Origin: Gammaproteobacteria bacterium
Lineage (GTDB): Bacteria > Pseudomonadota > Gammaproteobacteria > Eutrophobiales > Eutrophobiaceae
Direction of reading: 5' to 3'
Assembly: GCA_965261775.1 (NCBI GenBank)
Contig: OZ253477.1
Location: forward strand, 526,407-590,406
DNA: 64,000 nt
How positions within the stretch are numbered: position 1 is the first letter of the stretch; every line of letters starts with the position of its first letter. Shown piece by piece: positions 12,779 to 34,531 of the stretch. A model generated the notes under the pieces. That model had not been told where the DNA came from. It saw only the letters and a list, made by a program, of their open reading frames with translations, and searched no databases. The translations under genes were made by a program, and so were the position numbers.

Positions 12779-13121
12779 ATCGTCCGTTGTTCCTGCGCGT
12801 TATTGTTTTTTCTGCCGAAATCTGAAAATGGTCCGAATTTTCCCGCCTATTGCAGTATGTCGCTATCCTAAATCAGGATTATAAAGGCGGATTCAATTTA
12901 AATTTATTTTTAATTTTAAATATATAGTTATAGAATGGGGATTGCCGTCAAAATACGGTCTGTCCCGTTTTAGTTGCCAACCGCCCTTCTTGCAACGCCA
13001 TCCCCTGCTCACAGCACCGACATCTTTCATGGTGATCATGCACAATTGCGAATAACAAACCCAAAATCCTTCCCTTCATGAAATATTCGGGATAAGAAGT
13101 GGATATACTACTTGAAACAAG

Positions 13122-16528: not shown

Positions 16529-17503
16529 TTAACTGAACGATTGCTTCAATAAATCAAGAGCGATTTTACCGGCGTAAAAGGTATGCCCCGTGTCCAATGA
16601 GGTCACGGCAACTTTGGCCGGGCTGAATAACATGGGATCAATTTTATAAAAATCATAATCGACTTCTTTAAATATCTGCGCGAAAGGCTTACCATAATCC
16701 GCCGAAGCGCTGCTAGGCAGTTTGTTTGCCAGTTCTTCCGCTTCATCATCGTTTCCGTTGATAAACAGTTGTACCTTCCCGGCAAACAGAATCGCGTCGT
16801 TGCTACGACCCATCGCCGTCAGAAAGTCTGCAGACGGTGGGCATATCGGCGCCGTTCCCGCGCCGTCAATGATTTTTTCCAGTGGAAAATGCAGGGCATG
16901 CGCCTTGTGCAGGGCAGTTTCAAGTACGCGCGCGACCACCTGCACCGAACCGGCCAGACTTGATATCGGGGTCAGGATAATAGTCAATGCCGAGGGGGGA
17001 ATGCCACATTTCCCTGAGATCTTGTCGCTTATCTCAACCGGCGGAAATTTATCGACCTCAATCACAATACATGCTGACCCTGCCTTGTCCCGGTAACCCA
17101 GATCCTCGTAAAGCGTTTCACTGCTGCCCATCGCCCTCGCCGGACCTGAACCCAATGCATTAAAAGCGCCCTTGCCTTCCCCAGCCTGTAGATGCCAACC
17201 GGCATATTGGCTGCCGAGACAGGACAGTACTGGATTGCTGCTGTGCACATCCAGATGCCACAGGCAGGGGGGGAAATCGCCTTCAGCGCGCAGATTGGCC
17301 CGCCCAAGCCCGCCCATACAAATCTCGGCGATCAGACGCCCGGCTTCCAGCCCCCCGGGTACGTTGATTCCGGCGTCGATCACGCGGCAACCGTTATCCA
17401 GTTCCGAAACTGCTAATCTCAAGGGCACCGCCTGTTCAACTAGCCGCTCAAGCAGTGGTTTGACAAGTTGATTGATTCCGGGTAATGCTGTTTTTTTATC
17501 CAT
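16529..17503 (-). CDS. mch: Methenyl-tetrahydromethanopterin cyclohydrolase
   Basis: [49 protein letters not shown]. Confidence 0.97.
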
Positions 17504-18718: not shown

Positions 18719-19630
18719 CTATCCCTCCGCGGAAATAAATTGCTTTGCTACCTCAAAGGCTTGCAAATGGTCAAGATATACCGGCGTATCGGAGTTTTTC
18801 ATCATTTCAAACATCCTGAAATGTACTTTGTATTTAATATCGCCGATGGCAAGTGCGCCGATACCCAGCACTTTTTTTGGGGTACCACTCAATTCAACCC
18901 CCATATCACCGACCCCGACACCTTCAATACCGGCCGGTGGCACCGCATTACAATCGGCGACAACCAGCAACCTCGCCGCCTGTTCTAGCTGTTTTCGGGA
19001 TACAGTTTGAATGCCGGCCTTTGCCGCGTTAATAACAACCTGAGATTCGCCTAAAAACGCCATGACTTTGTCAGATGTACTGCTGTCCTCTCCACGCATT
19101 TCAACATTGAAACGGGTATTATATTCAGCAGCATATTCCGCCGCGACCATGGCCCCGCGACGACTGCTTAAATAAACCTCGGCACCGGAACCGGCCGCTA
19201 GAATACCGGCACAGACACCGACTGGACCGGTGCCGCCAATAATATCCACGCGTTTTCCCGACAGGGTTTCACCCGTTTTTTCTTTTAATTGGGCCTCTAT
19301 ACAGGCTATTAGAGCCGCCGCTGTCGTAATGGCACCGCTTGGATCGGCAAACACCGAAACTTCAAACGGGGGCACCATCGCAGACCTGGCACGCTTTAAC
19401 ATATCAATTGCTAATCCGAATTCCCGTCCGCCTATAAAAATGCCGGTGCGCTTAACACCTTTTTTACCGCGTGAGAAGATTGTATCCTGGGTTAAAGCAT
19501 GGATATCATCCAACGTTACTTCCGAGTAAGGAATGACGCCGTCAAACTCCGCCTCATAGGCCATATTCACATCAAACGGGCTGATATTTTTGGTTGGGTT
19601 AAACATATGTAACAAATAAGGATCTTTCAT
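18719..19630 (-). CDS. mtdB: NAD(P)-dependent methylene-H4MPT dehydrogenase, MtdB type
   Basis: LHMF..SPFDVNMA, QDTIFSR, MVPPFEVSVFADPSGA, GGTGPVG, D.NAVPP. Confidence 0.92.
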   Translation of the reverse strand: MKDPYLLHMFNPTKNISPFDVNMAYEAEFDGVIPYSEVTLDDIHALTQDTIFSRGKKGVKRTGIFIGGREFGLAIDMLKRARSAMVPPFEVSVFADPSGAITTAAALIACIEAQLKEKTGETLSGKRVDIIGGTGPVGVCAGILAAGSGAEVYLSSRRGAMVAAEYAAEYNTRFNVEMRGEDSSTSDKVMAFLGESQVVINAAKAGIQTVSRKQLEQAARLLVVADCNAVPPAGIEGVGVGDMGVELSGTPKKVLGIGALAIGDIKYKVHFRMFEMMKNSDTPVYLDHLQAFEVAKQFISAEG

Positions 19631-19648: not shown

Positions 19649-20680
19649 TTAGTTTAAAGGTTTGATTTTCAGATTTTCATCCTGCGTTTCCGCCCCGATA
19701 TCACTCGCCGATATCCGCGCAGCAGTATTACACCCGCGGCCTACCACGAAACGCAATGCCTGTCGGGAACGCCACGTATGTCGCACTTTTCTCAACGCCG
19801 CCGAGGCTACTTTCTCATCGGCAAAGATGGCGAAACCAGTCGGTCCCCAAGAACTTTGCCCCACGCCCGTCGCCCCTGTATCGGTTAATTCGTCCAGTAT
19901 GGATTTCAAATGGGCGGAAGCATAACTCTGTTTTTGTATCGGCGAAAAGTAATCGCCCATAATATTCTGTATTTCGGTGATTGCCATGCCAAAACGTTCA
20001 CAATCATTTTCACATATGGCCGGTAAAACCTGCATCAGGGTTAACCGGCTCAGTAAACCCGACATTGATTCTGACATAGGCGCCAGAGTATCAAAGGCAT
20101 GTTGCTCCGGTGCACCGTTGATGCCTTCCGTTTCATCATCCAGAATCAGAATCATTCGCCAATTTTCGGGAAAAGGCAAACGGCTGATAATGGGGGGGAT
20201 CTCGGTGCGCTCTCCCCTGCCCCCGTCAATGACAAACCCGCCCCACATAAAAGTACCGATACCGACACCCGAACGCGCACCCCGATGCAAAATGACCGCT
20301 AACCGCACGGGGTTTTGCTCGCTCAAACCATAAAGTCTGGCAATGGCAACGGCGATAGACAGGGAAAGCCGGGTGCCCGAACCGAGGCCGATATGTTCAG
20401 GAACGGCTGAATGGATCGACACCTTCACGCCGCCCTCAATACCAAAATGCGACAGTATCCGTTCAGCATAACGGCGTCCCCGCTCAGCGGACGGGCCGCT
20501 GACTTCAATATCAGCGGCACGCTCAGCGGACAATACTGTTTCAATAGGCGAAATGGACAGACCCAGACTCCCGAATTTTCTGCCAAACCCACCGTGCATA
20601 TCCAGAAACCCCAGATGCAATCGCGCTGGCACGCTCACACTGATGCAGCGGGGATTGTTCATTGGCTGATTAGTTTTCAT
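19649..20680 (-). CDS. mptG: Beta-ribofuranosylaminobenzene 5'-phosphate synthase (GHMP family)
   Basis: PARLHLGFLD, PEHIGLGSGT, RGARSGVG, GGFVIDGG, GQSSWGPT. Confidence 0.92.
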   Translation of the reverse strand: MKTNQPMNNPRCISVSVPARLHLGFLDMHGGFGRKFGSLGLSISPIETVLSAERAADIEVSGPSAERGRRYAERILSHFGIEGGVKVSIHSAVPEHIGLGSGTRLSLSIAVAIARLYGLSEQNPVRLAVILHRGARSGVGIGTFMWGGFVIDGGRGERTEIPPIISRLPFPENWRMILILDDETEGINGAPEQHAFDTLAPMSESMSGLLSRLTLMQVLPAICENDCERFGMAITEIQNIMGDYFSPIQKQSYASAHLKSILDELTDTGATGVGQSSWGPTGFAIFADEKVASAALRKVRHTWRSRQALRFVVGRGCNTAARISASDIGAETQDENLKIKPLN

Positions 20681-20821
20681 TTATTCGGAGGGTATCATCG
20701 GCACTGCTTTTACAGGGAATGACGGATCATACTTTACATTGGCACCCGAAGATAGTCGGAAGTGGCAACTGCCTAAAATTATTTGTTTCCGTAATAGTCG
20801 CCGCTATAATAAACAACCATT

Positions 20822-21187
20822 ATGATTGCAAAATCCAAACAAAACGCTGTAGAAAGAATGATCCTTATCCCCGGACGTTCAAGTAAACAGGGAACATCTC
20901 TCAATAAGGGCAAACTGAAAGAAGAATATATCCGGGTAACGTCAACCTTGGAAATGAATATGGATGACATGAAAAGGCTTAAACTGTCTGATGGCGATGA
21001 GGTACGATTAAAGAATGGTATTGGGAGCACTGTGGTCCGCTGCCTCGGCAAAAAACCGGAAGATCTCCCGGCCGGCACCCTTTTCATCGCTTACGGACCA
21101 CCCTCCAGTGAACTGATGGCAAGCGATACTGCGGGAAGCGGTATGCCATTATCAAAACATATTGAAGTTGAAATTGAGAAACTCTGA
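20822..21187 (+). CDS. fwdD: Formylmethanofuran dehydrogenase subunit D-like (molybdopterin dinucleotide-binding domain); start may be 20858
   Basis: LIPGRSSKQG, MNMDDMKRL, FIAYGP, T.GSGMP..K; directly upstream of subunit B. Confidence 0.85.
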   Translation: MIAKSKQNAVERMILIPGRSSKQGTSLNKGKLKEEYIRVTSTLEMNMDDMKRLKLSDGDEVRLKNGIGSTVVRCLGKKPEDLPAGTLFIAYGPPSSELMASDTAGSGMPLSKHIEVEIEKL

Positions 21188-21235
21188 AAAAAACCACATA
21201 CTGAACAGTCTTGTTCATAAGGGAGGAATTCTGTA

Positions 21236-22576
21236 ATGGGCGAAAATACCAAAATAGTTGAAAACGCGACATGCACCTTTTGCGGCTGTGTTTGCGACGA
21301 TATGGAACTACATGTCGATCTTGATGAAAAACGCATCACGCGAGCCAAAAACGCCTGTGTATTAGGCCGCGCCTGGTTTGCGGAGCATACCATTGAAGAG
21401 GCGCCGGTAGCGAAGATTGCGGGCAAGGCGGTTGAACTTGAAGAAGCAATTGAGGTGGCGGCACAAGTACTGGTCAAGGCAAAATTTCCGATTACCTATG
21501 GCTTGAGTGACACCACTTGCGAGGCACAACGTCAGGCGGTTGCCATCACGGATATCATTCGGGGCAATATTGATACGACCACTTCCGTTTGTCATGGACC
21601 ATCCGGACTGGCGTTTCAGGGGGTGGGCGAAAGCACTAGTACTCTGGGTGAAGTGAAAAATCGTGCCGATCTGGTCATCTACTGGGGGGGCAATCCGGCT
21701 GAATCGCATCCGCGTCATTTTGGGCGCTACGCTGTCACCCCGAAAGGGATGTTCACGCCAGGTGGAAAAAAAGACCGTACTATAGTGCTGGTTGATGTAC
21801 GTAAAACGAAAAGTACGCCAGTAGCCGATATTTTTATTCAACCCAAGCCCGGCAAAGATTTTGAAGTTCTGTGGGCATTGCGCATACTGGTCAAAGGTAA
21901 AAAGCCATCCCCGGATATTGAAGACGTCACCGGCGTCTCTTTGGAAGTCCTGTCAGATTTGGCGGAACGCATGAAAAACTGCCGTTTCGGTGTACTCTTT
22001 TTCGGGATGGGTCTGACCATGACGCGGGGACGTCATTTTAATTCAGGCGCATTGCTGGCGCTGGCAACCGACCTGAACGAATTTACCCATTTTGTCGCCA
22101 AACCGGTACGTGGTCACGGCAATGTCACTGGAGCCGACAATGTCGTTTCCTGGCAAACCGGGTACCCCTTCGGGGTCAATTTCAGTCGCGGCTATCCGCG
22201 CTTCAATCCGGGCGAATTCACTGCCGTTGATGTCCTCTCAAACAGCGATGCTGATGCCGCGTTGATTATCGCCAGTGACCCGGCCTCAAATTTCCCCAAA
22301 CAGGCTATCGAACATCTGAAGAGCATCCCCGTGATCTCGCTGGATACCAAAGAGACCGAAACTACCAAAGGTGCCTATGTTTCCTTTCGAACCGCGACTT
22401 ACGGCATCAATACCGGTGGGACAGTTTATCGCATGGATGATGTCCCCATTACCCTGCGGCCGGCCTTTGAATCACCTTTTCCAGATGACGAGACCATCCT
22501 GAGCGCGATAAAAGAACGGGTACGCGAGTTGATGTTCGCCCGATACAAAACCGATCGGACCACCGAGGCGGCATAG
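21236..22576 (+). CDS. fwdB: Formylmethanofuran dehydrogenase subunit B with intact 4Fe-4S and Mo/W-ligand motifs
   Basis: CTFCGCVCDD...NAC, SVCHGPS, TLGEVKNRAD, HPRH, RGHGNV, GTVYRMD. Confidence 0.93.
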   Translation: MGENTKIVENATCTFCGCVCDDMELHVDLDEKRITRAKNACVLGRAWFAEHTIEEAPVAKIAGKAVELEEAIEVAAQVLVKAKFPITYGLSDTTCEAQRQAVAITDIIRGNIDTTTSVCHGPSGLAFQGVGESTSTLGEVKNRADLVIYWGGNPAESHPRHFGRYAVTPKGMFTPGGKKDRTIVLVDVRKTKSTPVADIFIQPKPGKDFEVLWALRILVKGKKPSPDIEDVTGVSLEVLSDLAERMKNCRFGVLFFGMGLTMTRGRHFNSGALLALATDLNEFTHFVAKPVRGHGNVTGADNVVSWQTGYPFGVNFSRGYPRFNPGEFTAVDVLSNSDADAALIIASDPASNFPKQAIEHLKSIPVISLDTKETETTKGAYVSFRTATYGINTGGTVYRMDDVPITLRPAFESPFPDDETILSAIKERVRELMFARYKTDRTTEAA

Positions 22577-22655
22577 CATTATCCCAAAAAATAATTCAAT
22601 GGCTCAAACCATTGATTGAACAAACAATAAAACCAGCCTTTTTCAGAACAATTTG

Positions 22656-24293
22656 ATGTCGACTTCCATACGTATAATCAATGGTCGGGTATTTGATCCG
22701 ACAAACGGTATCAACGGCAAAATAAAAACGCTCTGTATCCAGGACGGTAAAATTGTTGCTTCAATCACCGAAGAAGACGCAACCGTCATTGACGCGCAAG
22801 GGATGGTCATTATGCCGGGTGGCGTGGATATCCATTGTCATATTGCCGGTCCCAAGGTCAATGCTGCCAGAAAACTGCAACCTGAAGACCATCGCCATGA
22901 CGTGCACCCCTCAACACCGTTCACCCGTTCCGGTGTCGGCGGCACGGTACCTTCGACCTTTACCACCGGCTACCGCTACGCGACGATGGGATACACCACA
23001 GCGATGGAGGCGGCCGTCACCCCTATTGGCGCCCGCCACACTCTGGAAGAATTTCATGACACTCCGGTCATTGATAAAGGATTTTATGTCCTGCTCGGTA
23101 ATAATATCCTTCTGCAGCAACTGTTGCGCGAAAAGCGTATGGAAGAATTTGAACAGGCTACTGCCTGGTGGATCAGTTCCACCAAAGCCTATACGGTAAA
23201 ACTGGTGAATCCCGGTGGAGATGAACCCTGGAAGGGCAAAAAAAATTCCAATGTATCGGACATTGATGAAAAAACCGGAGGCGATTTAACACCGAGGCAA
23301 ATCATAGAAGCGTTCATCAAGTTCGTCAATAAGCGCAAGTTTCCGCATCCGGTCCACATCCACTGCAACAATCTTGGGCATAGCGGGAATTACAAGACCA
23401 CGCTTGAAACGATGAAAACAGCAGGCGACCTGAAAGCGCATCTGGCGCATATTCAATTCCACAGCTACGGTGGTGAAATAGGAAAAAACCCGCTGTCAAA
23501 GGCAACAGAAATCATTGAATATATCAATGAGCACCCCAACATCACCTGTGATGTCGGTCAAGTTATGTTCGGCAAATCCACGATCATGACTGCCGATGCC
23601 CCTATGGCTTATGTCCTGAAAGGACACAGCAAGAGTAAGTGGGTGAATGCAGATACTGAATGCGAAAGCGGTTGCGGTATTGTGCCTTTTACCTATCAAG
23701 AGCACAGCTATACGCACACCCTGCAATGGGCCATCGGCCTTGAACTTTTTCTGATGTCAAAAGACCCCTGGCGCGTTGTGCTCTCTACCGACCACCCGAA
23801 CGGCGGTTCGTTTATGAATTATCCGAAATTGATCAAACTGCTGATGGATAAAGCATTCCGCCATGAAGAAATGAAACGCGTTAACCAAAAGGCCCTGGAT
23901 AAATGCACCCTGCGCGACCTGGAACGGGAATATACCCTGAATGAAATTGCGATCATTACTCGCGCTGGTCCGGCGCGGGCACTGGGTCTTGAGATGAAGG
24001 GGCACCTCGGACCGGGCGCCGACGCAGATATCACTATTTACGACGATATGGAAGACAAGGAAGCAATGTTTAGCGCGCCCCGTTATGTCATCAAGGCCGG
24101 CGTTCCTGTGATCGCGGACCACGAATTCAGGCATGATATCAGCGGCAAACTGTTTCATATTGAGCCGGAATATGATCGGAAAATCGAGAACATCGTGCGG
24201 TCCTTTTTTGAAAATTATTATTCGATTGAATTTTCAAACTATGCCGTGGATGATTGCTACCTGCACAGCCACCAAATCATCGCCACCAAATAA
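22656..24293 (+). CDS. fwdA: Formylmethanofuran dehydrogenase subunit A / FhcA (binuclear amidohydrolase)
   Basis: PGGVDIHCH, VKLVNPGG, HIHCNNLG, HIQFHSY, QWAIGLE, TDHPNGG. Confidence 0.95.
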   Translation: MSTSIRIINGRVFDPTNGINGKIKTLCIQDGKIVASITEEDATVIDAQGMVIMPGGVDIHCHIAGPKVNAARKLQPEDHRHDVHPSTPFTRSGVGGTVPSTFTTGYRYATMGYTTAMEAAVTPIGARHTLEEFHDTPVIDKGFYVLLGNNILLQQLLREKRMEEFEQATAWWISSTKAYTVKLVNPGGDEPWKGKKNSNVSDIDEKTGGDLTPRQIIEAFIKFVNKRKFPHPVHIHCNNLGHSGNYKTTLETMKTAGDLKAHLAHIQFHSYGGEIGKNPLSKATEIIEYINEHPNITCDVGQVMFGKSTIMTADAPMAYVLKGHSKSKWVNADTECESGCGIVPFTYQEHSYTHTLQWAIGLELFLMSKDPWRVVLSTDHPNGGSFMNYPKLIKLLMDKAFRHEEMKRVNQKALDKCTLRDLEREYTLNEIAIITRAGPARALGLEMKGHLGPGADADITIYDDMEDKEAMFSAPRYVIKAGVPVIADHEFRHDISGKLFHIEPEYDRKIENIVRSFFENYYSIEFSNYAVDDCYLHSHQIIATK

Positions 24294-24301
24294 CCCCCGA
24301 C

Positions 24302-25210
24302 ATGAAGATTAAATCAACCGAAATTGATAACACCTTTGCCGAAGCGTTCAAGATGTACGCCGCCCGCATCGTCATCACGGCGGCGACAAAAGAATGGGCC
24401 ATGGCAGCGGCGCAGTCCGTTACCGGCTTTGCCACCTCCGTCATCGGTTGCAAATGCGAGGCAGGGATTGAACGCGAAATATTCCCCGAGGATTCACCTG
24501 ATCTCAGACCCGGTGTCACCGTTTTGCTCTTTGCGATGGATGCGGAAAATCTTGGTAAACGCCTGGTGGAACGTATCGGTCAGTGCGTGATGACCTGCCC
24601 ATCAACCGCTTGCTACAACGGTCTGGACGAGGGCAACCGCATCGGGGTCGGCGATCGGTTACGTTATTTTGGTGATGGTTATCAGATGAGCAAAATGATT
24701 GCCCATAAACGACTCTGGCGTATCCCTGTAATGGATGGTGAATTTTTGATAGAAGATCAATTCAGGACAGTTCAGTCTGTTGGCGGAGGCAATCTAATCA
24801 TCCTGGGCAAAAGTCAGCATGCCACACTTAAAGCCGCCACCGCTGCCGCTAAAATAATGCGAAAAATGCCAGAGGTGATATTACCCTTTCCCAACGGCGT
24901 AGTACGTAGCGGCAGCAAAGTCGGTTCTCGTTATAAGTCCCTCATTGCCTCCACCAATGACGCTTATTGTCCGAGCCTGCAAGCTGTTGTTGAACATTCC
25001 GCGCTTGAAACTGGTATAAACAGCGCACTTGAAATCGTGGTCAATGGTTTAAATCCAGAGGCCGTGGAGCAAGCCATGTGCGCGGGGATGGAGGCCGCCG
25101 CAAAGCCCGGTATCAAAAAAATCAGCGCAGGCAATTACGGAGGCAAACTGGGTCAATATCAAATTCACCTGCATAAACTGCTGCAACGGAAAAGCGAGCA
25201 TGGCGCTTAG
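24302..25210 (+). CDS. ftr: Formylmethanofuran:H4MPT N-formyltransferase (Ftr/FhcD)
   Basis: TFAEAF, GFATSVIGC..EAG, RIGQCVMTCP, RSGSKVGS, SAGNYGGKLG. Confidence 0.96.
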   Translation: MKIKSTEIDNTFAEAFKMYAARIVITAATKEWAMAAAQSVTGFATSVIGCKCEAGIEREIFPEDSPDLRPGVTVLLFAMDAENLGKRLVERIGQCVMTCPSTACYNGLDEGNRIGVGDRLRYFGDGYQMSKMIAHKRLWRIPVMDGEFLIEDQFRTVQSVGGGNLIILGKSQHATLKAATAAAKIMRKMPEVILPFPNGVVRSGSKVGSRYKSLIASTNDAYCPSLQAVVEHSALETGINSALEIVVNGLNPEAVEQAMCAGMEAAAKPGIKKISAGNYGGKLGQYQIHLHKLLQRKSEHGA

Positions 25211-26012
25211 ACTGAAATTACATACCCGACCGGAAGTCCCACTGGAGGCGGATTGCATCTGTCCGGACAAATTAAAGGGGCTTACCCACAAGGAAATTTC
25301 GAGACTGACCCTGTTTCACGGTAACCGCCAGGCCTGTCTGGGCGAATTCTTTGATTGCGGTGGCGAATTTGACGGTCATATTCATATCACCGGCGAGATG
25401 GATAATATCAGACACTTTGGGGCCGCGATGTCATCCGGCAGCATTCATATTGACGGGAATGTCGGCATGCATACCGGCGCCGCAATGCGCGGCGGTGAGA
25501 TATGCATTGAAGGCAATGCTTCGGACTGGCTGGGAGCCGAGATGACGGGTGGTAGAATAACCGTTCGCGGCAATGCCGGACACATGGTCGGTTGCGGCTA
25601 TCGCGGTAGTTCTGTCGGGATGCAGGGTGGCGAAATCATCATTCACGGCAATGTCAAAAACGAAACCGGCCATGTCATGCGCCGCGGCCTGATTGCGATC
25701 GGCGGCGACAGCGGCGACTTCACCGGGGTCAATATGCTGGCAGGGACAATCATTGTGCTGGGACGGATGGGGATCCGCTCCGGCGCGGGAATGAAACGCG
25801 GTTCTATCATTTGCATGGGGAAAACGGATATATTACCGACATTCACATACAGTTGCCGTTATCATCCCGTGTTCATGCGATATTATTATCGATATTTGAA
25901 GGCAACGGGATTAATCGTTCCCGATGTTTTTCTGGACGGACTTTTCGATAGATGGTGCGGTGATGCCGTGGAATTTAATCGAGGAGAAATATTACTCTAC
26001 AAGGGAAAATAA
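25200..26012 (+). CDS. fwdC: Formylmethanofuran dehydrogenase subunit C / FhcC
   Basis: Repeated G..M.GG.I.I.GN beta-helix units; GAGMKRG. Confidence 0.94.
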   Translation: MALRLKLHTRPEVPLEADCICPDKLKGLTHKEISRLTLFHGNRQACLGEFFDCGGEFDGHIHITGEMDNIRHFGAAMSSGSIHIDGNVGMHTGAAMRGGEICIEGNASDWLGAEMTGGRITVRGNAGHMVGCGYRGSSVGMQGGEIIIHGNVKNETGHVMRRGLIAIGGDSGDFTGVNMLAGTIIVLGRMGIRSGAGMKRGSIICMGKTDILPTFTYSCRYHPVFMRYYYRYLKATGLIVPDVFLDGLFDRWCGDAVEFNRGEILLYKGK

Positions 26013-26043
26013 ACTTAAACCAAGCAAAACTGGAGAGATGCTC

Positions 26044-26349
26044 ATGACAACAATCGTAACCGATAATTGTAAAGACTGCCGTTTTACCGACTGTGTAACC
26101 GTATGTCCTGTTGACTGTTTCCACTATGACGACACAATGCTCTACATTGACCCCGAGGTCTGCATTGACTGTAGTGCCTGTATTCCCGAATGTCCCGTCG
26201 AAGCGATTCTCGAGGATGATGATATCCCCGAAGACAAGCAACACTGGATAGAAATCAATGCCGAAAAAGCGCCCAATCTACCCGTCTGTAACGAAAAAAT
26301 GGAACCTCTTTCGGGGGCAGAAGAAAAGAGAACAGCACTTGGTTTTTAG
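26044..26349 (+). CDS. fdxA: 7Fe (3Fe-4S + 4Fe-4S) ferredoxin, FdxA/Azotobacter FdI type
   Basis: VTDNCKDCRFTDCVTVCPVDCF...CIDCSACIPECPVEAI; GGAGAG RBS upstream. Confidence 0.9.
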   Translation: MTTIVTDNCKDCRFTDCVTVCPVDCFHYDDTMLYIDPEVCIDCSACIPECPVEAILEDDDIPEDKQHWIEINAEKAPNLPVCNEKMEPLSGAEEKRTALGF

Positions 26350-26380
26350 TGCCTTTTAACACCACAGACAGGGACAAACT

Positions 26381-27754
26381 ATGTCAGACAATAAAGAGAA
26401 ACCTTTGCTCGTTGCCGTCGTTGGCAGCGGACCGAGTGGTTTTTACGCTGCAGAGGCACTCATCAAATCCGATACCAATGTCAGGATTGACATGTTTGAA
26501 CGTCTCCCCTCCCCCTACGGACTGGTACGCAGCGGCGTCGCCCCGGACCATCAGAAATTAAAACAGGTCATTCGGATCTATCAGAAGATCGCGGCAATGC
26601 CGGATTTTAAGCTGATTGCCAATGTCACCGTCGGCAGGGACATCTCCGTAGATGAACTTCGCCGCTTGTATCATGCCGTTATCTTCTGCTACGGAGCCGA
26701 GACCGACAGGAAACTCGGGGTCCCCGGTGAAGACCTGAACGGCAGTCATACCGCAACCGAGTTCGTCGGCTGGTATAATGGGCATCCCGATTATCAGGAC
26801 CGCCATTTTGACCTGTCCAGCGAAGTGGCTGTAATTATCGGCCAGGGTAATGTTGCCGCTGATGTCAGCCGCATTCTTGCTAAAACGGTGGACGAATTAA
26901 AACACACCGATATCGCTCAACATGCTCTGGACGCACTGGCGGAAAGCCGGGTCAGGGAAATTCATGTTATCGGACGCCGCGGCCCGGCTCAGGCAAAATT
27001 CACCACCAGAGAACTGCGTGAATTTGGCGAACTGGGGGATTGCGCCCCGGTCGTACTCGCGGAAGACCTGGAGCTTAATGCGGAAAGCCAAACGGAGCTT
27101 GAAGACAAAGGTCATGCCACCAACAAAAAAATTTACGGGCTGTTCCGTGATTTTTCTGAACTTCCACCTTCGCCGCAAAAATCAAAAAAGTGCTTTTTTA
27201 AATTTTTGCTTGGTCCTAAAATCCTGGAAGGTTCCGGGAAACTGGAAAGAGTGGTCCTTGAGCGCAACAAACTGAGCGGCGCGCCATTTAAACAATCAGC
27301 CGCCGGTACCGGCGAGACAATCGAACTGGAAACCGGTCTGTTATTCCGCAGCATTGGTTATCACGGTTTACCGATGGTCGGTGTTCCCTTTGATGAAAAA
27401 CGGGGCATTATCCCCAATGAAAAAGGACGAGTAAGGGATAACCCGCAACTGTACGCAGCCGGCTGGATCAAACGTGGTCCCAGCGGGATTATCGGAAATA
27501 ATCGCGCCTGTAGTGTTGAAACCGTTGCTTGTTTGCTGGAAGATAAGAAGAAACTGGCAGATGGCACTGAAAAAACAGGAGCAGATGGCGTATATGCCCT
27601 GCTGAAAGAGAGAAATATCCGTCCCCTGGGTTATGATGATTGGCGGAAAATTGATACTGCCGAAATAAGCTCTGGCAAGACCAGAGGCAAACCGCGCGAA
27701 AAATATGTTGTCGTCAGTGAAATGCTTGCACTCATTGATAATTTAGGAAAATAA
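26381..27754 (+). CDS. Ferredoxin-NADP+ reductase, adrenodoxin-reductase/FprA family
   Basis: GSGPSG, PYGLVRSGVAPDH, FVGWYNGHP, GQGNVAAD, GRRGPAQAKF, GWIKRGPSGIIG. Confidence 0.92.
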   Translation: MSDNKEKPLLVAVVGSGPSGFYAAEALIKSDTNVRIDMFERLPSPYGLVRSGVAPDHQKLKQVIRIYQKIAAMPDFKLIANVTVGRDISVDELRRLYHAVIFCYGAETDRKLGVPGEDLNGSHTATEFVGWYNGHPDYQDRHFDLSSEVAVIIGQGNVAADVSRILAKTVDELKHTDIAQHALDALAESRVREIHVIGRRGPAQAKFTTRELREFGELGDCAPVVLAEDLELNAESQTELEDKGHATNKKIYGLFRDFSELPPSPQKSKKCFFKFLLGPKILEGSGKLERVVLERNKLSGAPFKQSAAGTGETIELETGLLFRSIGYHGLPMVGVPFDEKRGIIPNEKGRVRDNPQLYAAGWIKRGPSGIIGNNRACSVETVACLLEDKKKLADGTEKTGADGVYALLKERNIRPLGYDDWRKIDTAEISSGKTRGKPREKYVVVSEMLALIDNLGK

Positions 27755-27786
27755 TGGATAATTGATGATTATCGGTTTTTGATCAA

Positions 27787-27846
27787 GGCGCCCCCCGGCG
27801 GGTTTTTTCCTCGTGTGTCTTACCGCCGAACGGGGCGCCGCTTTTT
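27787..27846 (+). terminator. GC-rich interrupted hairpin followed by a T-run between convergent genes
   Basis: ggcgcccc/ggggcgcc and cggcgg/ccgccg arms, then TTTTT. Confidence 0.4.
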
Positions 27847-27986
27847 AAGTATGCGGTTTTGTCCGCAAAAACCGATAAAATTGCATCCCTCCCAAAATTA
27901 AACCGGTTTATTTCTTCATAGGGGAATAGGAAATACCGTCATTTTACTGCTTTAATTTTTCGGATTTGCATAAGATGCGCTATTGG

Positions 27987-29078
27987 TTACTTTCCAGATT
28001 TTCTCCGGTTATCGTCTTTACACAAAATCTGACAATTTTCTGCGTTAGTTTTACCGCCCTCGTGCCAAGGGGTAATGTGATCGGCTTCCATTTCGGGAAG
28101 ATCAAATTTTTCTTTGCAGAATGGACAAACGCCCTTTTGTCTTTCGTATGCCTCTCGCTTCATGTTGTCGGTAAATGAACGGATATTTAAGCATCGTTCG
28201 TCCCGAGTCAAAACATAAGGATAAATCCCCGGTTTTTTCGTCACATCTTCATCTTGCATCAATTTTGCAATTTCTGATTCTAGTTTTTTGGGATTGAGTT
28301 GTTTATCTTTAAATGCGTTATATAGCTCACCCCAATTCACGCTCGCCATTTCTTTTCGGTAGTTTGGAAAAGTGTTACGCACCCATGCGATTACATTTTG
28401 GAAGTACTCCCACAATTCATTGGCATTGTTATCGTGCTGATGCTTCGCCATGTAATCTGCCACTTCGCCATTATTTATCCACGAGAGCGCAGTTTCCAGG
28501 TACTCCTGCCTAATCGGTGAACCTTTCAAGAGCGATCCGCCGTCATTTGCCAAAAGGTACGCGGCGCAGTTTGTTTTGCTGAATTTCAGCTTTGCGTCAG
28601 AAAGCCATGGGCCGGTATAAACGGCGTTGCGTAATTCTTGATCCGTTAATTTTTCACCGGCAATGTTGATAGTTTTGAACCAATCCAATCGTTCCTTATC
28701 AGTGCCTTCGCAGAAATAAACCATCAATTCGTAATCCAAAATCTGGTCTTGTTCTTCTTTGGTCAGATTATGGAAAAAATAATCATTGAGTGAAAAATCT
28801 CCGTCTACATATTGTCCGATGCTAATAGTGCGCTGCTGTCCGTCCAGCATTTCATAACCGCCATTGTCACGCACCATCCAGTACATCACGTTGAGCGGAA
28901 AATTTTGTTTGATGGTTTCAATCACCGCATCCCGCTGGTGGCCTTTATAGACAAACTCGCGCTGATACTTCGGGCGAATATCAAGCTCGCCACCGTAAGC
29001 AACAACACCTTCCTCGGCGCTGTCTTTGTAGCCTTCAATTACTTTGTGTATCGGAATTTGGCGTAGTTTAATTTTCAT
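27987..29078 (-). CDS. DUF262 (GmrS-like) + C-terminal HNH endonuclease
   Basis: RPKYQREFVY, DGQQR, WF.TIN.AG; CPFC...EADHITPW..GG.T..ENCQILC..DNR.KS. Confidence 0.9.
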   Translation of the reverse strand: MKIKLRQIPIHKVIEGYKDSAEEGVVAYGGELDIRPKYQREFVYKGHQRDAVIETIKQNFPLNVMYWMVRDNGGYEMLDGQQRTISIGQYVDGDFSLNDYFFHNLTKEEQDQILDYELMVYFCEGTDKERLDWFKTINIAGEKLTDQELRNAVYTGPWLSDAKLKFSKTNCAAYLLANDGGSLLKGSPIRQEYLETALSWINNGEVADYMAKHQHDNNANELWEYFQNVIAWVRNTFPNYRKEMASVNWGELYNAFKDKQLNPKKLESEIAKLMQDEDVTKKPGIYPYVLTRDERCLNIRSFTDNMKREAYERQKGVCPFCKEKFDLPEMEADHITPWHEGGKTNAENCQILCKDDNRRKSGK

Positions 29079-29079
29079 A

Positions 29080-30138
29080 TTATTTCTTTATCCTTTTATT
29101 TCTTATAAATAACCGCTTGAATGTTTCTTTGCCATTCAAATATGACCCTCTACCATAAACACCGTTTGAGTCTTGGTCTACACCGCGGTTTGAGCCAACA
29201 ATTTCAAACTGATCTGGGTTGTATTTATCAAGAAAAGTAATAGGTACTCCCATTATTCCTTCATATTCCATCGGAATATTGAGATATTTTGATACTTCAA
29301 TCGCATCGTAGTTGTCATACTTCGGATATTCTTTGAGGCTATATTTTTTATACAAAGTCAGTTCCTCATGGCGCTTTGTTGTATCAAGATTCGTAAACCA
29401 CACAATACTGCCCATGCTGAAATATTTTACGCCATTTTCAACCTTTTTCCTTGATTTGGTTTTTATGTCGTAATCGTCGGGGACTTCAAACCATTTTGTG
29501 CCACCATTGTCATATCCGAGCCATAATTTATTGGCTTTAATGAACACAAAAACTTCCTTATAGATTATGGCACTTTGACTACCAAGAATTAAAAACTTTT
29601 TTTTGTGTTCCATCAATTGCTCAACGTATTCACGGAAAAGTGAGAACGGTGGATTTGTTACAACTATATCTGCTTCTTTCAATAACTCTATACACTCTTG
29701 GCTACGGAAATCGCCATTGCCCTTGAGTGGGGTTGCCGTATTTTTGTCGTGCTTGAGTAAATATTCCACATCATCAAGATTTATTGCACCATCACCGTCC
29801 ATATCTGGCACTTCTTTGAACTCCATTTTGAATGGCTCTTTACCTTTTGGTTTAAGTCCCTCAACTTCAAACAGCGGCAATTGTCCACCGACAATTGGCG
29901 ATTTGGTATAGCTCGTAGTGATGAGCTTTTTTAATCCAAACGCATTGAAGTTAGCGGCAAAATATTTAAAAAAATTACTCTCAAAAGGATCATCGCAATT
30001 ACAGTACACAACTTTGCCACGAAATTGATCCTTGTAGTGCTTCAATTCTTTTTCAATATCATCAAGCTGGGTATAAAACTCATCTCTCTTTGCTTTCGCT
30101 GCTCGATTGAGTCGTGTATTTAAAGGTTTAGTACTCAT
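29080..30138 (-). CDS. Adenine-specific DNA methyltransferase, M.EcoRI family
   Basis: DEFYT, VVYCNCDDP..SNF, GDFRS.EC, DIVVTNPPFSLFREY, MGVPITFLDKYNP. Confidence 0.92.
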   Translation of the reverse strand: MSTKPLNTRLNRAAKAKRDEFYTQLDDIEKELKHYKDQFRGKVVYCNCDDPFESNFFKYFAANFNAFGLKKLITTSYTKSPIVGGQLPLFEVEGLKPKGKEPFKMEFKEVPDMDGDGAINLDDVEYLLKHDKNTATPLKGNGDFRSQECIELLKEADIVVTNPPFSLFREYVEQLMEHKKKFLILGSQSAIIYKEVFVFIKANKLWLGYDNGGTKWFEVPDDYDIKTKSRKKVENGVKYFSMGSIVWFTNLDTTKRHEELTLYKKYSLKEYPKYDNYDAIEVSKYLNIPMEYEGIMGVPITFLDKYNPDQFEIVGSNRGVDQDSNGVYGRGSYLNGKETFKRLFIRNKRIKK

Positions 30139-31565: not shown

Positions 31566-33113
31566 ATGAAGATCGGCATACCCAAAGAAACATATTCAGG
31601 GGAAAAACGTGTGGCGACAACCCCCGATGTTATCGGTTGGCTGAAAAAATCAGGTTACGAGGTGGCCGTTGAGGCCGGTGCCGGCACGGCGGCCAATTTT
31701 TCAGATGACGCCTATCGTGAGGCCGGTGCTGAAATAATGATGGATACCCGACAGTTATGGGAATCGGCTGATATTCTCTTGAAGGTCAGAGCCCCAGAAG
31801 AGGCAGAAACGGATTATCTACATGAAGGGCAAACCCTGATCAGTTTTATCTGGCCGGCACAGAATGAAGCCTTGATGCAGAAACTCTCCGCCAAAGCGAT
31901 CAATGTGCTGGCGATGGACAGTGTTCCGCGTATTTCCCGCGCACAGAAAATGGATGCGCTCAGTTCCATGGCTAATATCGCCGGATACCGGGCAGTTATT
32001 GAAGCTTCACACAATTTCGGACGTTTCTTTACCGGTCAGATTACCGCTGCTGGCAAAGTCCTTCCGGCAAAAGTGCTGGTGATCGGAGCGGGCGTGGCCG
32101 GTCTGGCCGCCATCGGTACGGCCAACAGCCTGGGAGCGGTGGTGCGCGCCTTTGATACACGCCCGGCGGTCAAAGAGCAGATTGAGAGCATGGGCGCCGA
32201 GTTCCTGATGCTGGATTTTGAAGAAGACGGTAGCGGCGAAGGGGGTTATGCGAAAGTCATGAGCGATGAGTTCATCGCCGCAGAAATGGCGCTTTTTACC
32301 AAACAGGCCAAAGAGGTCGATATTATTATCACGACGGCGCTTATCCCCGGTAAACCCGCACCAAAGCTGATCAACGCCGAGATGGTGAAGTCTATGAAAA
32401 ACGGCAGTGTGATTGTCGATTTAGCGGCGGAACAGGGTGGCAACTGTGCGTTAACCCGAAAAGACGATATTTTCGTCAGTGATAACGGCGTTACGATTAT
32501 CGGCTATACCGATTTGCCCAGTCGTCTGCCGACACAATCCAGTCAACTCTATGCCACCAATCTGCGACATTTACTGACAGACATGACCCCTGAGAAAGAC
32601 GGGCAGATCACCATTGATTTTGAAGATGAAGTCGTTCGCGGCGCGACCGTGATAAAAGCCGGGGAGATTACCTGGCCGCCCCCGCCGGTAAAACTTTCAG
32701 CCGCACCGCCCCCGAAATCTGCCGGGGCATCGCTGGCGCCAGCGCTAAAAGAAGAGACAAAATCAAAACCGGGGGGATTTCGGCAGATGTTGCCGGTATT
32801 GCTCGGCGCCGTTGCGCTCGGCTTTCTTGGGACGGTAGCGCCGCCCTCTTTTATGGCACATTTTACCGTCTTCGTACTGGCCTGCTTTATCGGTTACATG
32901 GTGATCTGGAATGTAACCCCTTCCCTGCATACGCCGTTGATGAGTGTAACCAATGCGGTAAGCAGCATCATCATCATCGGGGCCCTGATACAGATATCTT
33001 CTTCGGATACGCTGCTGGTTGCGCTGGCCGCGCTTGGCGTTTTGATCACCAGTATTAACATTACCGGCGGGTTCGCCATCACCCAGCGCATGCTGCGGAT
33101 GTTCAGAAAATAA
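31566..33113 (+). CDS. pntA: NAD(P) transhydrogenase alpha subunit (unsplit)
   Basis: [30 protein letters not shown]. Confidence 0.97.
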
Positions 33114-33127
33114 CGGGAGTAGGTACC

Positions 33128-34531
33128 ATGTCAGAAGGTCTAGTAACCGCGGCTTATATTGGCGCGACGATTCTGTTTATCCTGACCCTGAGGGGCTTGA
33201 GCCACCAGGAAACCTCACGGAGGGGTAACATCTACGGCATCATCGGCATGACCATCGCCATACTGGCAACGGTGTTCGGCGAGGTTAGCAGTAATTTTCA
33301 CCTGATCATCATCACCATGCTGATCGGCGGAAGCATCGGTCTCATTGTTGCCAGAAAGGTGGAAATGACGCAGATGCCAGAACTGGTCGCCATCCTGCAC
33401 AGTCTGGTGGGCCTGGCGGCGGTATTGGTAGGTTATGTCAATTTTATGGACCCCACGATATCCTTTCCCACTGCTGCCGAGGAACTGATCCATACCATTG
33501 AAATCTATATCGGCGTTTTGATTGGCGCGGTAACCTTTTCAGGTTCCGTCGTGGCATTCGGCAAGCTGAGCGGCAAATTGAGCAGTAACCCATGGTTGCT
33601 GCCCGCCCGCCATTACCTGAATTTAGCCCTGCTCATCATCGTGATTTATCTGGGTTTTTTGTTCGCGCAGCAAACCGAAGCGGGCGCCGGGATGTGGCCG
33701 CTAGTTGCGATGACGGCCATCGCTCTTTTCTTCGGAATACACATGGTTATGGCGATTGGCGGTGCTGATATGCCGGTAGTCATCTCCATGCTGAACAGTT
33801 ATTCCGGCTGGGCTGCCTCGGCGACCGGTTTCATGTTGTCCAACGATTTGTTAATTGTGGTCGGTGCGCTGGTGGGTAGTAGCGGCGCGATACTGAGCTA
33901 TATCATGTGCCGCGCCATGAACCGCAAATTCCTGTCCGTAATTGCCGGTGGCTTTGGAACGGATTCGGGCGGCGGTACCCGCGATACAGGCGAGGAGCAG
34001 GGAGAGGTCAACTCAATTACAAAGGCAGATGTTGTGGAACTCCTGACCAATGCCAAAGAAGTCATGTTCATCCCCGGTTATGGCATGGCGGTAGCGCAGG
34101 CACAGCATACCGTGAACGAAATCACCAAGGTACTGCAAGGCAGAGGCATCAATGTCCGCTTTGGCATTCATCCGGTGGCAGGGCGTATGCCGGGGCACAT
34201 GAACGTGCTCCTGGCCGAAGCAAGGGTACCTTATGATATTGTGTTTGAAATGGATGAGATTAACGCGGATTTTCCGAACATTGATGTCAGCATTATCATT
34301 GGCGCGAACGATATCGTCAATCCTTCCGCACAGGAAGACCCCGACAGCCCTATTGCCGGTATGCCGGTACTGGAATGCTGGAAAAGTAAAACGAGCATCG
34401 TCCTGAAACGGAGCATGGCGACAGGCTATGCCGGTATTCAGAACCCGCTTTTCTTCAAGGAAAATACGTGTATGTATTTCGGGGATGCAAAAGAAAATCT
34501 GGACTCAGTGTTAAAAGGCTTGTCTGAATAA
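33128..34531 (+). CDS. pntB: NAD(P) transhydrogenase beta subunit
   Basis: [51 protein letters not shown]. Confidence 0.97.

What the first reader, a model, noticed from the sequence alone, without database searches (positions are those of the whole stretch)
25200..27754. 7Fe ferredoxin + FprA-type reductase in place of FwdF/G as the electron exit
Seen: fwdC is followed, on the same strand with gaps of about 30 nt, by an FdxA-type 7Fe ferredoxin and an adrenodoxin-reductase-family FNR. No polyferredoxin FwdF/FwdG is in the window. Known: methanogens use FwdF/G; mycobacterial FprB is a fusion of this kind of ferredoxin with an FprA-type reductase. Inference: electrons flow FwdB 4Fe-4S -> ferredoxin -> FNR -> NADPH, a compact 'Fwd-Fd-FNR' module turning C1 oxidation into NADPH. 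This is the best candidate for an undescribed system in the window.
Basis: partly seen in the sequence, partly recalled or inferred. Interest (0 to 1): 0.8.

Follow-up and report, generated by a model that had tools for sequence, protein, structure and literature searches.

The report
Bacterial formyl-methanofuran dehydrogenase with ferredoxin–NADP reductase exit
An uncultured marine-type gammaproteobacterium carries a seven-gene operon for an archaeal-style, redox-competent formyl-methanofuran dehydrogenase that ends in its own small ferredoxin and NADPH-ferredoxin reductase, a conserved arrangement that probably turns the last step of one-carbon oxidation directly into NADPH and seems not to have been described.

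Summary
On the + strand fwdC (25200-26012) is followed after 31 nt by a 101-aa 7Fe FdxA-type ferredoxin (26044-26349) and after another 31 nt by a 457-aa FprA/adrenodoxin-reductase-type flavoprotein (26381-27754). They close a seven-gene operon, fwdD-fwdB-fwdA-ftr-fwdC-fdxA-fpr (20822-27754). FwdB is not the dead scaffold FhcB of methylotrophs. It keeps the four [4Fe-4S] cysteines and the catalytic Cys/His/Arg of archaeal FwdB, and FwdD is present. The same genome holds a separate Fhc-type set (catalytic residues lost) followed by an NAD-type formate dehydrogenase. In 80 loci fetched with Fpr, 48 have fdxA next to fpr, and 38 of those 48 sit on a redox-type Fwd set, in two different gene orders. 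In a sample of 401 genomes of the class, 20 of 21 with this FwdB also have Fpr. There are exceptions: the pair occurs without Fwd, it survives loss of Fwd, and one genome has lost fpr. Electron flow Fwd -> FdxA -> Fpr -> NADP+ is inferred, not shown. RNA reads and complex prediction gave nothing usable. My literature searches found no description. Verdict: a real, conserved, probably new variant of Fwd; interest 0.68.

The parts
20822..21187 (+). fwdD: molybdopterin-dinucleotide-binding 'fourth domain' subunit (121 aa)
   Evidence: Pfam PF01568, 40.3 bits against a cut-off of 26.8. Best PDB relatives are all FwdD chains: 2ki8_A E 1.8e-13, 5t5i_D E 4.3e-12.
21236..22576 (+). fwdB: redox-type formylmethanofuran dehydrogenase subunit B (446 aa), with a [4Fe-4S] motif and the catalytic Cys
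   Evidence: TIGR03129, 510.7 bits against a cut-off of 327.8. Scores 370-377 bits to archaeal FwdB (9sfi_Q, 8rja_B, 5t5i_B) but only 51 bits to M. extorquens FhcB 6s6y_B. C13/C16/C20/C41, and C119/H120/R292, which align with M. wolfei C118/H119/R288. All seven are kept in 32 of 32 orthologues.
22653..24293 (+). fwdA: amidohydrolase subunit (formyl-MFR forming/cleaving); the start codon is uncertain
   Evidence: TIGR03121, 704 bits against a cut-off of 392.75. Scores 472-479 bits to archaeal FwdA and 354 bits to FhcA 6s6y_A.
24254..25210 (+). ftr (fhcD-like): formylmethanofuran:H4MPT formyltransferase; the start codon is uncertain (the family match begins at residue 17)
   Evidence: Pfam FTR plus FTR_C. 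NF002554, 430.5 bits against a cut-off of 297; TIGR03119, 414.6 against 292.6.
25200..26012 (+). fwdC: beta-helix subunit (270 aa) with an Fhc-like C-terminal part
   Evidence: TIGR03122, 262.7 bits. phmmer covers residues 9-265 against FhcC 6s6y_C but stops near residue 216 against archaeal FwdC. The model (pLDDT 95.6) has a helix at 224-235. TM 0.91 and rmsd 1.9 to 6s6y_C, against 0.89 and 2.7 to 5t5i_C.
26044..26349 (+). fdxA: dedicated 7Fe ([3Fe-4S]+[4Fe-4S]) ferredoxin paralogue (101 aa)
   Evidence: Matches Azotobacter FdI entries at E 4e-29. Scores 115 bits on NF045490, below its cut-off of 135. A second genomic copy at G000:C1:610039-610359 scores 166.8. The cysteines are invariant in 41 of 41.
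26381..27754 (+). fpr: FprA/adrenodoxin-reductase-type NADPH:ferredoxin oxidoreductase (457 aa)
   Evidence: 1lqt_A E 1.2e-106 over residues 7-450; 1cjc_A E 9.4e-98. GSGPSG at 15-20 and GRRGP at 198-202 are read from the translation and the alignment.

Best explanation
The operon fwdD-fwdB-fwdA-ftr-fwdC-fdxA-fpr encodes a bacterial, redox-active formyltransferase/formyl-methanofuran dehydrogenase.

Proposed pathway:
1. Formyl-H4MPT, made by the neighbouring Mch and MtdB genes, hands its formyl group to methanofuran/methylofuran on Ftr.
2. FwdA hydrolyses it to formate inside the complex.
3. FwdB/FwdD (Mo- or W-pterin, Cys ligand) oxidises the formate to CO2.
4. The two electrons leave through the FwdB [4Fe-4S] cluster to the dedicated 7Fe ferredoxin FdxA. 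FdxA takes the place of the archaeal FwdG/FwdF polyferredoxins.
5. The FprA-type flavoprotein passes the electrons to NADP+.

The net reaction is formyl-H4MPT + NADP+ -> CO2 + H4MPT + NADPH. It runs beside the conventional Fhc plus NAD-type formate dehydrogenase route encoded elsewhere in the genome.

Shown here: gene content, intact catalytic and cluster residues, conserved linkage and co-occurrence.

Inferred: binding of FdxA to Fwd, direction of electron flow, NADP specificity, the metal, and whether Ftr is physically part of the complex.
For: 1. Redox competence. FwdB keeps all four Fe-S cysteines and the residues equivalent to Cys118/His119/Arg288. These are kept in 32 of 32 orthologues, and the three catalytic residues in 0 of 27 of the paralogous FhcB-like proteins. 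FwdD is present. Passages of Hemmann et al. 2019 (PMC6926001) name exactly these features as what Fhc has lost.

2. Linkage. Of 80 loci fetched with Fpr, 48 have fdxA within 700 nt upstream. Of these 48, 35 have set-1 fwdC directly upstream of fdxA, and 3 (L099, L102, L108) have fdxA-fpr directly upstream of fwdD-fwdB. G383 shows the second order too.

3. Co-occurrence. In 401 sampled genomes of the class, 21 have this FwdB (E <= 1e-100) and 25 have Fpr. 20 have both; the one with FwdB only is 75% complete. In 15 of the 20 the two genes lie within 6 kb on one contig. Without the four unpublished genomes G063, G165, G319 and G331 the figures are 16 of 17 and 13 of 16.

4. Within the family, 18 of 20 genomes with this FwdB have Fpr. 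G001, G010 and G020 have only the Fhc-type paralogue and no Fpr orthologue.

5. The operon ferredoxin is a diverged extra copy beside a canonical FdxA.

6. Parallel layout. The genome's Fhc-type set is followed by a NuoF-like protein and a formate dehydrogenase alpha subunit, its own electron exit.

7. Thermodynamics. The formyl-MFR/CO2 couple is about -0.53 V (passage in PMC11656701), so reduction of NADP+ (about -0.32 V, recalled) is downhill.

8. Precedent. The Fwd of Ca. Ethanoperedens replaces ferredoxin coupling by an attached F420 reductase (passage in PMC11656701; 8rja).
Against: No direct evidence exists for binding, electron transfer or co-transcription.

The coupling is not obligate:
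- G423 (locus L089) has fdxA-fpr next to the Fhc-type set and no redox FwdB anywhere in the genome. It is a clean deletion of fwdD-B-A-ftr-C relative to L077.
- G403 and G227 likewise have fpr beside the FhcB-like gene and no redox FwdB. G143 has Fpr and only an FhcB-like gene 27 kb away.
- G004 (95% complete) keeps fwdB and fdxA but has no fpr.
- G016 and G424-G427 have fdxA-fpr and no Fwd or Fhc at all.

In L108, L117 and G006 the Fpr match is split into two pieces. This is either a frameshift or an assembly error.

Adrenodoxin-reductase-type enzymes are known to work from NADPH towards ferredoxin; the reverse direction is assumed here.

The sampled genomes are related to each other, so the counts overstate independence.
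Confidence: 0.55

Rival explanations
1. FdxA-Fpr is a general-purpose NADPH-to-ferredoxin supply pair, as in mycobacteria. It feeds other ferredoxin-dependent enzymes (for example radical-SAM or cofactor-biosynthesis steps of the methanopterin, methanofuran or pterin pathways) and merely travels with the C1 island.
For: The same pair occurs without any Fwd or Fhc gene nearby in 7 of the 48 loci that have fdxA-fpr (L088, L092, L114, L116, L122 Bradyrhizobium, L133, L134 Rhizobium). Four of those genomes have no FwdB-like gene at all, and neither does G016. The pair survives deletion of the Fwd genes in L089/G423. H4MPT-biosynthesis genes flank the operon (RFAP synthase, ATP-grasp proteins).
Against: Three family members with the Fhc-type paralogue and therefore the same cofactors (G001, G010, G020) lack Fpr. 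The pair stays attached to the redox-type set in two different gene orders. A canonical FdxA exists elsewhere in the genome, so the operon copy is an extra, diverged one.
Confidence: 0.2
2. The pair works in the opposite direction, NADPH -> Fpr -> FdxA -> Fwd. It would keep the oxygen-sensitive pterin and Fe-S centres reduced or reactivated in an aerobic host, or drive CO2 reduction.
For: The known direction of FprA/adrenodoxin-reductase enzymes is NADPH to ferredoxin (M. tuberculosis FprA serving P450s; passages in PMC6208970). The host looks like a methylotroph: PQQ methanol/ethanol dehydrogenase and Fae are present. Whether it respires oxygen was not checked here.
Against: Net CO2 reduction to formyl-MFR at -0.53 V by NADPH is strongly uphill. 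A repair role would not explain why the pair is retained next to the catalytically dead Fhc-type set after loss of Fwd.
Confidence: 0.12
3. FdxA is the true acceptor of Fwd, but NADP+ is not the main sink. Reduced FdxA feeds other acceptors and Fpr only balances the ferredoxin pool.
For: G004 keeps fwdB and fdxA (74% identity) directly before the FhcB-like gene but has no fpr. FdxA is more conserved than Fpr: 66-85% against 59-70% identity in the linked loci.
Against: fpr is adjacent in 38 of the 38 loci where fdxA sits on a redox Fwd set. This holds by construction, since those loci were fetched with Fpr. In the family, 18 of 20 genomes with FwdB have Fpr.
Confidence: 0.1

Closest known systems
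Archaeal tungsten/molybdenum formylmethanofuran dehydrogenase FwdABCDFG (M. wolfei, PDB 5T5I)
   Same: FwdA, B, C and D homologues are present. FwdB has the [4Fe-4S] motif and the catalytic Cys/His/Arg. The scores are 370 bits to FwdB, 472 to FwdA, 158 to FwdC and 49 to FwdD.
   Different: There is no FwdF or FwdG polyferredoxin in the window or the genome. A formyltransferase gene lies inside the operon. A 7Fe ferredoxin and an FprA-type reductase follow fwdC. The host is bacterial, and the likely direction is oxidative.
Formyltransferase/hydrolase complex FhcABCD of Methylorubrum extorquens (PDB 6S6Y; PMC6926001)
   Same: It is bacterial. Ftr (FhcD) is encoded with the A, B and C subunits in the order B-A-D-C. 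The C-terminal part of the C subunit looks Fhc-like.
   Different: FhcB lacks the Fe-S domain, the catalytic Cys/His/Arg and any FwdD (passages). Here all of these are present. Fhc releases formate and moves no electrons. This genome has a separate Fhc-type set elsewhere.
F420-reducing formylmethanofuran dehydrogenase of Ca. Ethanoperedens thermophilum (PDB 8RJA; PMC11493965 seen in search listings and abstract; passage in PMC11656701)
   Same: It is an oxidative Fwd whose polyferredoxin exit is replaced by a dedicated reductase module. Its FwdB and FwdA are among the closest solved relatives: 376 and 479 bits.
   Different: It is archaeal. Its acceptor is F420, through an attached F420 reductase. 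Here a soluble-type ferredoxin plus an NADPH flavoprotein are encoded as separate genes.
Mycobacterial FprA with 7Fe ferredoxin FdxA, and the fusion FprB
   Same: The same two protein families are involved: 1lqt at E 1e-106, and M. smegmatis FdxA 2v2k at E 1e-16. FprB shows that the two families work together.
   Different: They are not fused here. In mycobacteria they serve P450s or unknown partners, from NADPH towards ferredoxin. No link to C1 enzymes turned up in my searches.

Membership tests
Redox-active formylmethanofuran dehydrogenase (Fwd/Fmd) | FwdB N-terminal [4Fe-4S] cysteine motif | tested here: met
   C13, C16, C20 and C41 align with the archaeal motif and are invariant in 33 of 33 sequences.
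Redox-active formylmethanofuran dehydrogenase (Fwd/Fmd) | Catalytic Cys (or Sec), His and Arg of FwdB (M. wolfei C118, H119, R288) | tested here: met
   C119, H120 and R292; kept in 32 of 32 orthologues.
Redox-active formylmethanofuran dehydrogenase (Fwd/Fmd) | FwdD, the pterin-capping fourth domain | tested here: met
   ORF 20822-21187: PF01568 above its cut-off, and its PDB relatives are all FwdD.
Redox-active formylmethanofuran dehydrogenase (Fwd/Fmd) | Polyferredoxin partners FwdF/FwdG | tested here: not met
   No ORF in the genome has more than two CxxCxxCxxxC motifs, and none but fdxA in the window has one.
Redox-active formylmethanofuran dehydrogenase (Fwd/Fmd) | Bound Mo/W-bis-pterin and formyl-MFR dehydrogenase activity | not testable with these tools
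   Needs purified protein, metal analysis and an assay.
Formyltransferase/hydrolase complex (Fhc) | B subunit without catalytic residues, Fe-S domain or FwdD | tested here: not met
   All are present in the window's set. The genome's other set has Met at the Cys position.
Formyltransferase/hydrolase complex (Fhc) | Formyltransferase encoded with, and docked on, the C subunit through a C-terminal helix-loop-helix | tested here: inconclusive
   ftr lies between fwdA and fwdC. The FwdC model has a helix at 224-235 and fits FhcC slightly better than archaeal FwdC. Docking was not tested.
7Fe ferredoxin FdxA (Azotobacter FdI type) | Cysteine pattern Cx2Cx4Cx3CPx3C ... Cx2Cx2Cx3CP; which cysteine binds which cluster is recalled from the Azotobacter protein | tested here: met
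   Pattern read; invariant in 41 of 41.
7Fe ferredoxin FdxA (Azotobacter FdI type) | Score above the NCBIfam equivalog cut-off (NF045490, 135 bits) | tested here: not met
   115 bits. The second genomic copy scores 166.8, so the operon copy is a diverged paralogue.
FprA / adrenodoxin reductase family | Full-length similarity, the FAD and NADP Rossmann motifs, and the Arg-Arg pair for the 2'-phosphate (the role of the Arg pair is recalled) | tested here: met
   1lqt E 1e-106 over residues 7-450. GSGPSG, GQGNVA and GRRGP (R199, R200) are aligned.
FprB-type ferredoxin-reductase fusion | Ferredoxin and reductase in one polypeptide | tested here: not met
   They are separate ORFs with a stop codon and a 31-nt gap. 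No fusion was seen in the 48 loci that have both.

The most novel reading that the evidence does not exclude
This is a new enzyme system: a bacterial NADP+-reducing formyl-H4MPT (formyl-methanofuran) dehydrogenase supercomplex. In it an archaeal-type Mo/W FwdBD core, an Fhc-style docked formyltransferase and a private 7Fe ferredoxin plus FprA reductase work as one unit. It would be a living intermediate between archaeal Fwd and the bacterial Fhc complex, and a CO2/formyl-level redox enzyme in a bacterium that looks like a methanol-using methylotroph.
Probability: 0.45. Interest if true: 0.8.

Novelty: new variant of a known kind. Interest (0 to 1): 0.68.

Why it matters
Textbook bacterial C1 oxidation ends with the non-redox Fhc complex plus a separate formate dehydrogenase, and genome papers routinely label all such genes fhcABCD (for example the passage seen).

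If this reading holds, a widespread group of uncultured Gammaproteobacteria runs a second route, as do single MAGs labelled Gemmatimonadales and beta proteobacterium. That route oxidises the formyl group to CO2 without releasing formate and yields NADPH.

It would give a testable intermediate for the proposed evolution of Fhc from Fwd (PMC6926001, Discussion passage). It would add a third kind of electron exit to Fwd enzymes. It would also offer a compact, NADP-linked CO2/formyl catalyst from a bacterial host.

Tried and rejected
- RNA evidence. No RNA holder was listed for the stretch. Three RNA runs that share the species label of a DNA holder were laid on 20300-28300. Only 8 reads lay on it, all in one run and all inside fpr, 5 of them at 95-99% identity. 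This is no test of expression or co-transcription.
- Complex prediction of FwdB (33-row alignment) with FdxA (41-row alignment): no verdict, scores 0.15, 0.34 and 0.21 against a mark of 0.32. It is not used either way.
- Promoter and terminator scan of 20300-28200: 11 promoter-like and 15 terminator-like sites, against 9.1 and 10.3 expected. It is uninformative.
- Earlier notes of this scan: nothing relevant.
- Literature: searches found no paper that links a bacterial Fwd to a ferredoxin/FprA-type reductase. 'FprA' in methanogen papers seemed from the titles to be a different protein, by my recollection the F420H2 oxidase; those papers were not opened. Most subscription-journal papers are not in the library and supplements are closed, so absence from print is not proven.
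- Considered and dropped: that the window's set is an ordinary Fhc (refuted), and that the family is a named methylotroph family (the nearest LepA relatives are unnamed MAGs at 79% identity or less).
- One search repeated by mistake a search already done.


Full report
**What is there**

Seven genes lie head to tail on the + strand between 20822 and 27754:

| Gene | Coordinates | Size | Note |
|---|---|---|---|
| fwdD | 20822-21187 | 121 aa | |
| fwdB | 21236-22576 | 446 aa | |
| fwdA | 22653-24293 | | start codon uncertain |
| ftr | 24254-25210 | | start codon uncertain |
| fwdC | 25200-26012 | 270 aa | |
| fdxA | 26044-26349 | 101 aa | |
| fpr | 26381-27754 | 457 aa | |

Upstream, on the other strand, lie H4MPT-pathway genes: RFAP synthase at 19649-20680, an MtdB-like dehydrogenase at 18719-19630, ATP-grasp proteins, and Mch at 16529-17503. 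Downstream, on the - strand, is a low-GC restriction-modification pair at 27987-30138.

The window lies in a single 2.21 Mb contig, 98.4% complete. By LepA, the nearest named records are all uncultured Gammaproteobacteria MAGs at 79% identity or less.

**The dehydrogenase is not an Fhc**

In methylotrophs the homologous complex Fhc is hydrolytic. Passages of Hemmann et al. 2019 (PMC6926001) state that FhcB lacks the N-terminal [4Fe-4S] domain, Cys118, His119 and Arg288, and that no FwdD exists.

Here FwdB scores 370-377 bits against archaeal FwdB chains and 51 bits against M. extorquens FhcB. C13/C16/C20/C41 and C119/H120/R292 align with the archaeal cluster ligands and with C118/H119/R288. 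FwdD is present. All seven residues are kept in 32 of 32 orthologues taken from related loci.

FwdA is also closer to the archaeal subunits than to FhcA. FwdC is a partial exception:
- Its sequence match to FhcC runs over residues 9-265, while its matches to archaeal FwdC stop near residue 216.
- A confident model (pLDDT 95.6) has a helix at 224-235.
- The model superposes slightly better on FhcC (TM 0.91, rmsd 1.9) than on M. wolfei FwdC (0.89, 2.7).

In Fhc this C-terminal part is where the formyltransferase docks. Since ftr lies between fwdA and fwdC, the set looks like a hybrid: an archaeal-type redox core with an Fhc-style formyltransferase attachment. That last point leans one way but is not settled.

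**A second, conventional route in the same genome**

At G000:C1:272300-276973 (- strand) lies a second B-A-D-C set, 33-49% identical to the first. Its B subunit keeps the Fe-S cysteines but has Met at the catalytic Cys position. Across relatives the paralogue keeps the Fe-S cysteines in 27 of 27 and the catalytic Cys, His and Arg in 0 of 27.

In this genome that set is followed on the same strand by a NuoF-like protein and a formate dehydrogenase alpha subunit. A PQQ methanol/ethanol-family dehydrogenase lies nearby. Fae is present, and no pmoA-family match was found, although that control search rang in none of the control genomes. Each set therefore has its own downstream redox genes: NAD-type formate dehydrogenase for the dead set, and FdxA plus Fpr for the live one.

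**The ferredoxin and the reductase**

FdxA has the exact cysteine spacing of Azotobacter ferredoxin I and matches those entries at E 4e-29. Which cysteine binds which cluster is recalled, not tested.

It scores 115 bits on the proteobacterial FdxA equivalog model, below the cut-off of 135. A second copy elsewhere in the genome (54% identical) scores 166.8. The operon copy is thus an extra, diverged paralogue. It is 66-85% identical among 40 orthologues.

Fpr matches M. tuberculosis FprA at E 1e-106 end to end. The FAD and NADP glycine motifs and the GRRGP stretch are aligned.

No polyferredoxin exists in the window or the genome by a motif scan.

**Is the link conserved?**

*Family sample.* In the 24 other genomes of the family:
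- 20 have the redox FwdB (71-87% identity), and 18 of these have an Fpr orthologue.
- The two without Fpr are G004 (95% complete) and G023 (83% complete).
- G001, G010 and G020 have only the Fhc-type paralogue and no Fpr orthologue.
- G016 has fdxA-fpr but no FwdB-type gene.

In every one of the 22 loci L005-L026, which were fetched with Fpr, fpr adjoins another gene of the cluster. The usual order is ftr-fwdC-fdxA-fpr, and in many loci the FhcB-like gene comes next. L019 has fdxA only, and L012 and L025 end just upstream of fpr.

*80 loci fetched with Fpr from species-representative genomes:*

| Group | Loci |
|---|---|
| fdxA within 700 nt upstream of fpr | 48 of 80 |
| ... with set-1 fwdC directly before fdxA | 35 of 48 |
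| ... with the order fdxA-fpr-fwdD-fwdB (L099 labelled Gemmatimonadales, L102, L108 labelled beta proteobacterium) | 3 of 48 |
| ... cut too close to fpr to tell (L067, L103) | 2 of 48 |
| ... with only the Fhc-type set (L089) | 1 of 48 |
| ... with no Fwd or Fhc gene in the locus | 7 of 48 |
| Fhc-type set starting within 800 nt after fpr | 27 of 80 |

*Fpr tree.* I built a quick maximum-likelihood tree of 74 Fpr rows. Seven loci were dropped: L076, L123 and L136 for a stop inside the match, and L116, L117, L119 and L125 for matches under 400 residues. The careful search did not finish. All fdxA-adjacent rows except the two rhizobial ones fall in one group of 43, with 86% support. The 29 Fprs that stand alone form a separate group with 99% support. 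Of the 43, 36 are Fwd-linked.

*Class sample.* In an even sample of 401 genomes of the class:
- 21 have the redox FwdB and 25 have Fpr at E <= 1e-100. Both are present in 20.
- The one genome with FwdB only is 75% complete.
- 15 of the 20 have the two genes within 6 kb on one contig. The other 5 have them on different contigs of fragmented assemblies.
- Four of these genomes (G063, G165, G319, G331) are unpublished. Without them the figures are 16 of 17 and 13 of 16.

Related genomes are not independent, so these numbers show a long-lived association, not a probability.

**Exceptions**

- L089 (genome G423) is a clean deletion of fwdD-B-A-ftr-C relative to its near relative L077. It keeps fdxA-fpr in front of the Fhc-type set, and the genome has no redox FwdB.
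- G403 and G227 also have fpr next to the FhcB-like gene and no redox FwdB. G143 has Fpr with only an FhcB-like gene 27 kb away.
- G004 has fwdB, then fdxA, then 554 nt before the FhcB-like gene. It has no fpr anywhere in the genome.
- G016 and the genomes of L088, L092, L114 and L133 have the pair but no Fwd or Fhc.
- In L108, L117 and G006 the Fpr match is in two pieces.

The pair is therefore an older, self-sufficient two-gene module that was recruited to the Fwd operon. Neither partner is strictly dependent on the other.

**Most likely mechanism**

Formyl-H4MPT enters at Ftr. The formyl group passes on methanofuran/methylofuran to FwdA. The formate is oxidised at FwdBD. The electrons go from the FwdB cluster to FdxA, then to Fpr, then to NADP+.

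The step is downhill. The formyl-MFR/CO2 couple is about -0.53 V (passage in PMC11656701), and NADP+/NADPH is about -0.32 V (recalled). The [3Fe-4S] cluster of the Azotobacter protein is near -0.42 V and its [4Fe-4S] cluster near -0.65 V (both recalled).

The closest precedent is the Fwd of Ca. Ethanoperedens, which is coupled to F420 through an attached reductase. Its subunits are among the nearest solved relatives of the window's proteins.

I put 0.55 on this mechanism. The rivals are:
- a general NADPH-to-ferredoxin supply pair that merely travels with the island (0.2);
- reverse flow, for reductive maintenance or CO2 reduction (0.12);
- FdxA as the true acceptor, with NADP+ not the main sink (0.1).

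**Novelty**

Bacterial FwdB homologues with the catalytic Cys are known from surveys. Wells et al. 2023 (PMC10100899, passages seen) count 149 bacterial representatives and ascribe them to transfer from Archaea.

Seven full-text searches found no paper describing a bacterial Fwd with a formyltransferase in the operon and a 7Fe-ferredoxin/FprA-type exit. A symbiont paper I opened labels the pathway simply fhcABCD. Most subscription-journal papers are outside the library and supplements were closed, so prior mention cannot be excluded.

I rate it a new variant of a known kind.

Noticed in passing
G000:C1:272300-276973 (- strand; L146:10280-14962) and L146:5614-10024: A second, Fhc-type B-A-D-C set with the catalytic Cys replaced by Met. 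It is followed on the same strand by a NuoF-like protein and a formate dehydrogenase alpha subunit. A PQQ methanol/ethanol-family dehydrogenase lies at L146:1304-3241.
   Followed up: partly
Related loci L065-L136, FhcB-like genes directly after fpr: The catalytically dead FhcB-like paralogues keep all four [4Fe-4S] cysteines (27 of 27), although Cys/His/Arg are lost (0 of 27). M. extorquens FhcB, by contrast, lacks the whole Fe-S domain. The role of that cluster is unexplained.
   Followed up: partly
window 27987-30138 (- strand): A GmrSD/HNH nuclease (27987-29078) and an EcoRI-type adenine methyltransferase (29080-30138) lie in a 40% GC stretch. They occupy the place where many relatives carry the Fhc-type set directly after fpr, which suggests an insertion or rearrangement.
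   Followed up: no
window 31566-34531 (+): pntA/pntB proton-translocating NAD(P) transhydrogenase lies 3.8 kb downstream of fpr. Whether this relates to NADPH balance from the proposed route was not examined.
   Followed up: no
G000:C1:610039-610359: A canonical FdxA (107 aa, 166.8 bits on NF045490), 54% identical to the operon ferredoxin. It is probably the housekeeping copy.
   Followed up: yes
G004:C84:3859-10823: A family member with fwdB, fdxA (74% identity) and the FhcB-like gene, but no fpr between them and none elsewhere in the genome (95% complete).
   Followed up: partly
window 4362-14756: An ordinary gammaproteobacterial housekeeping block: era, rnc, lepB, lepA, degP-like protease, rseB, rseA, rpoE, and a NadB-like flavoprotein (13122-14756).
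   Followed up: no
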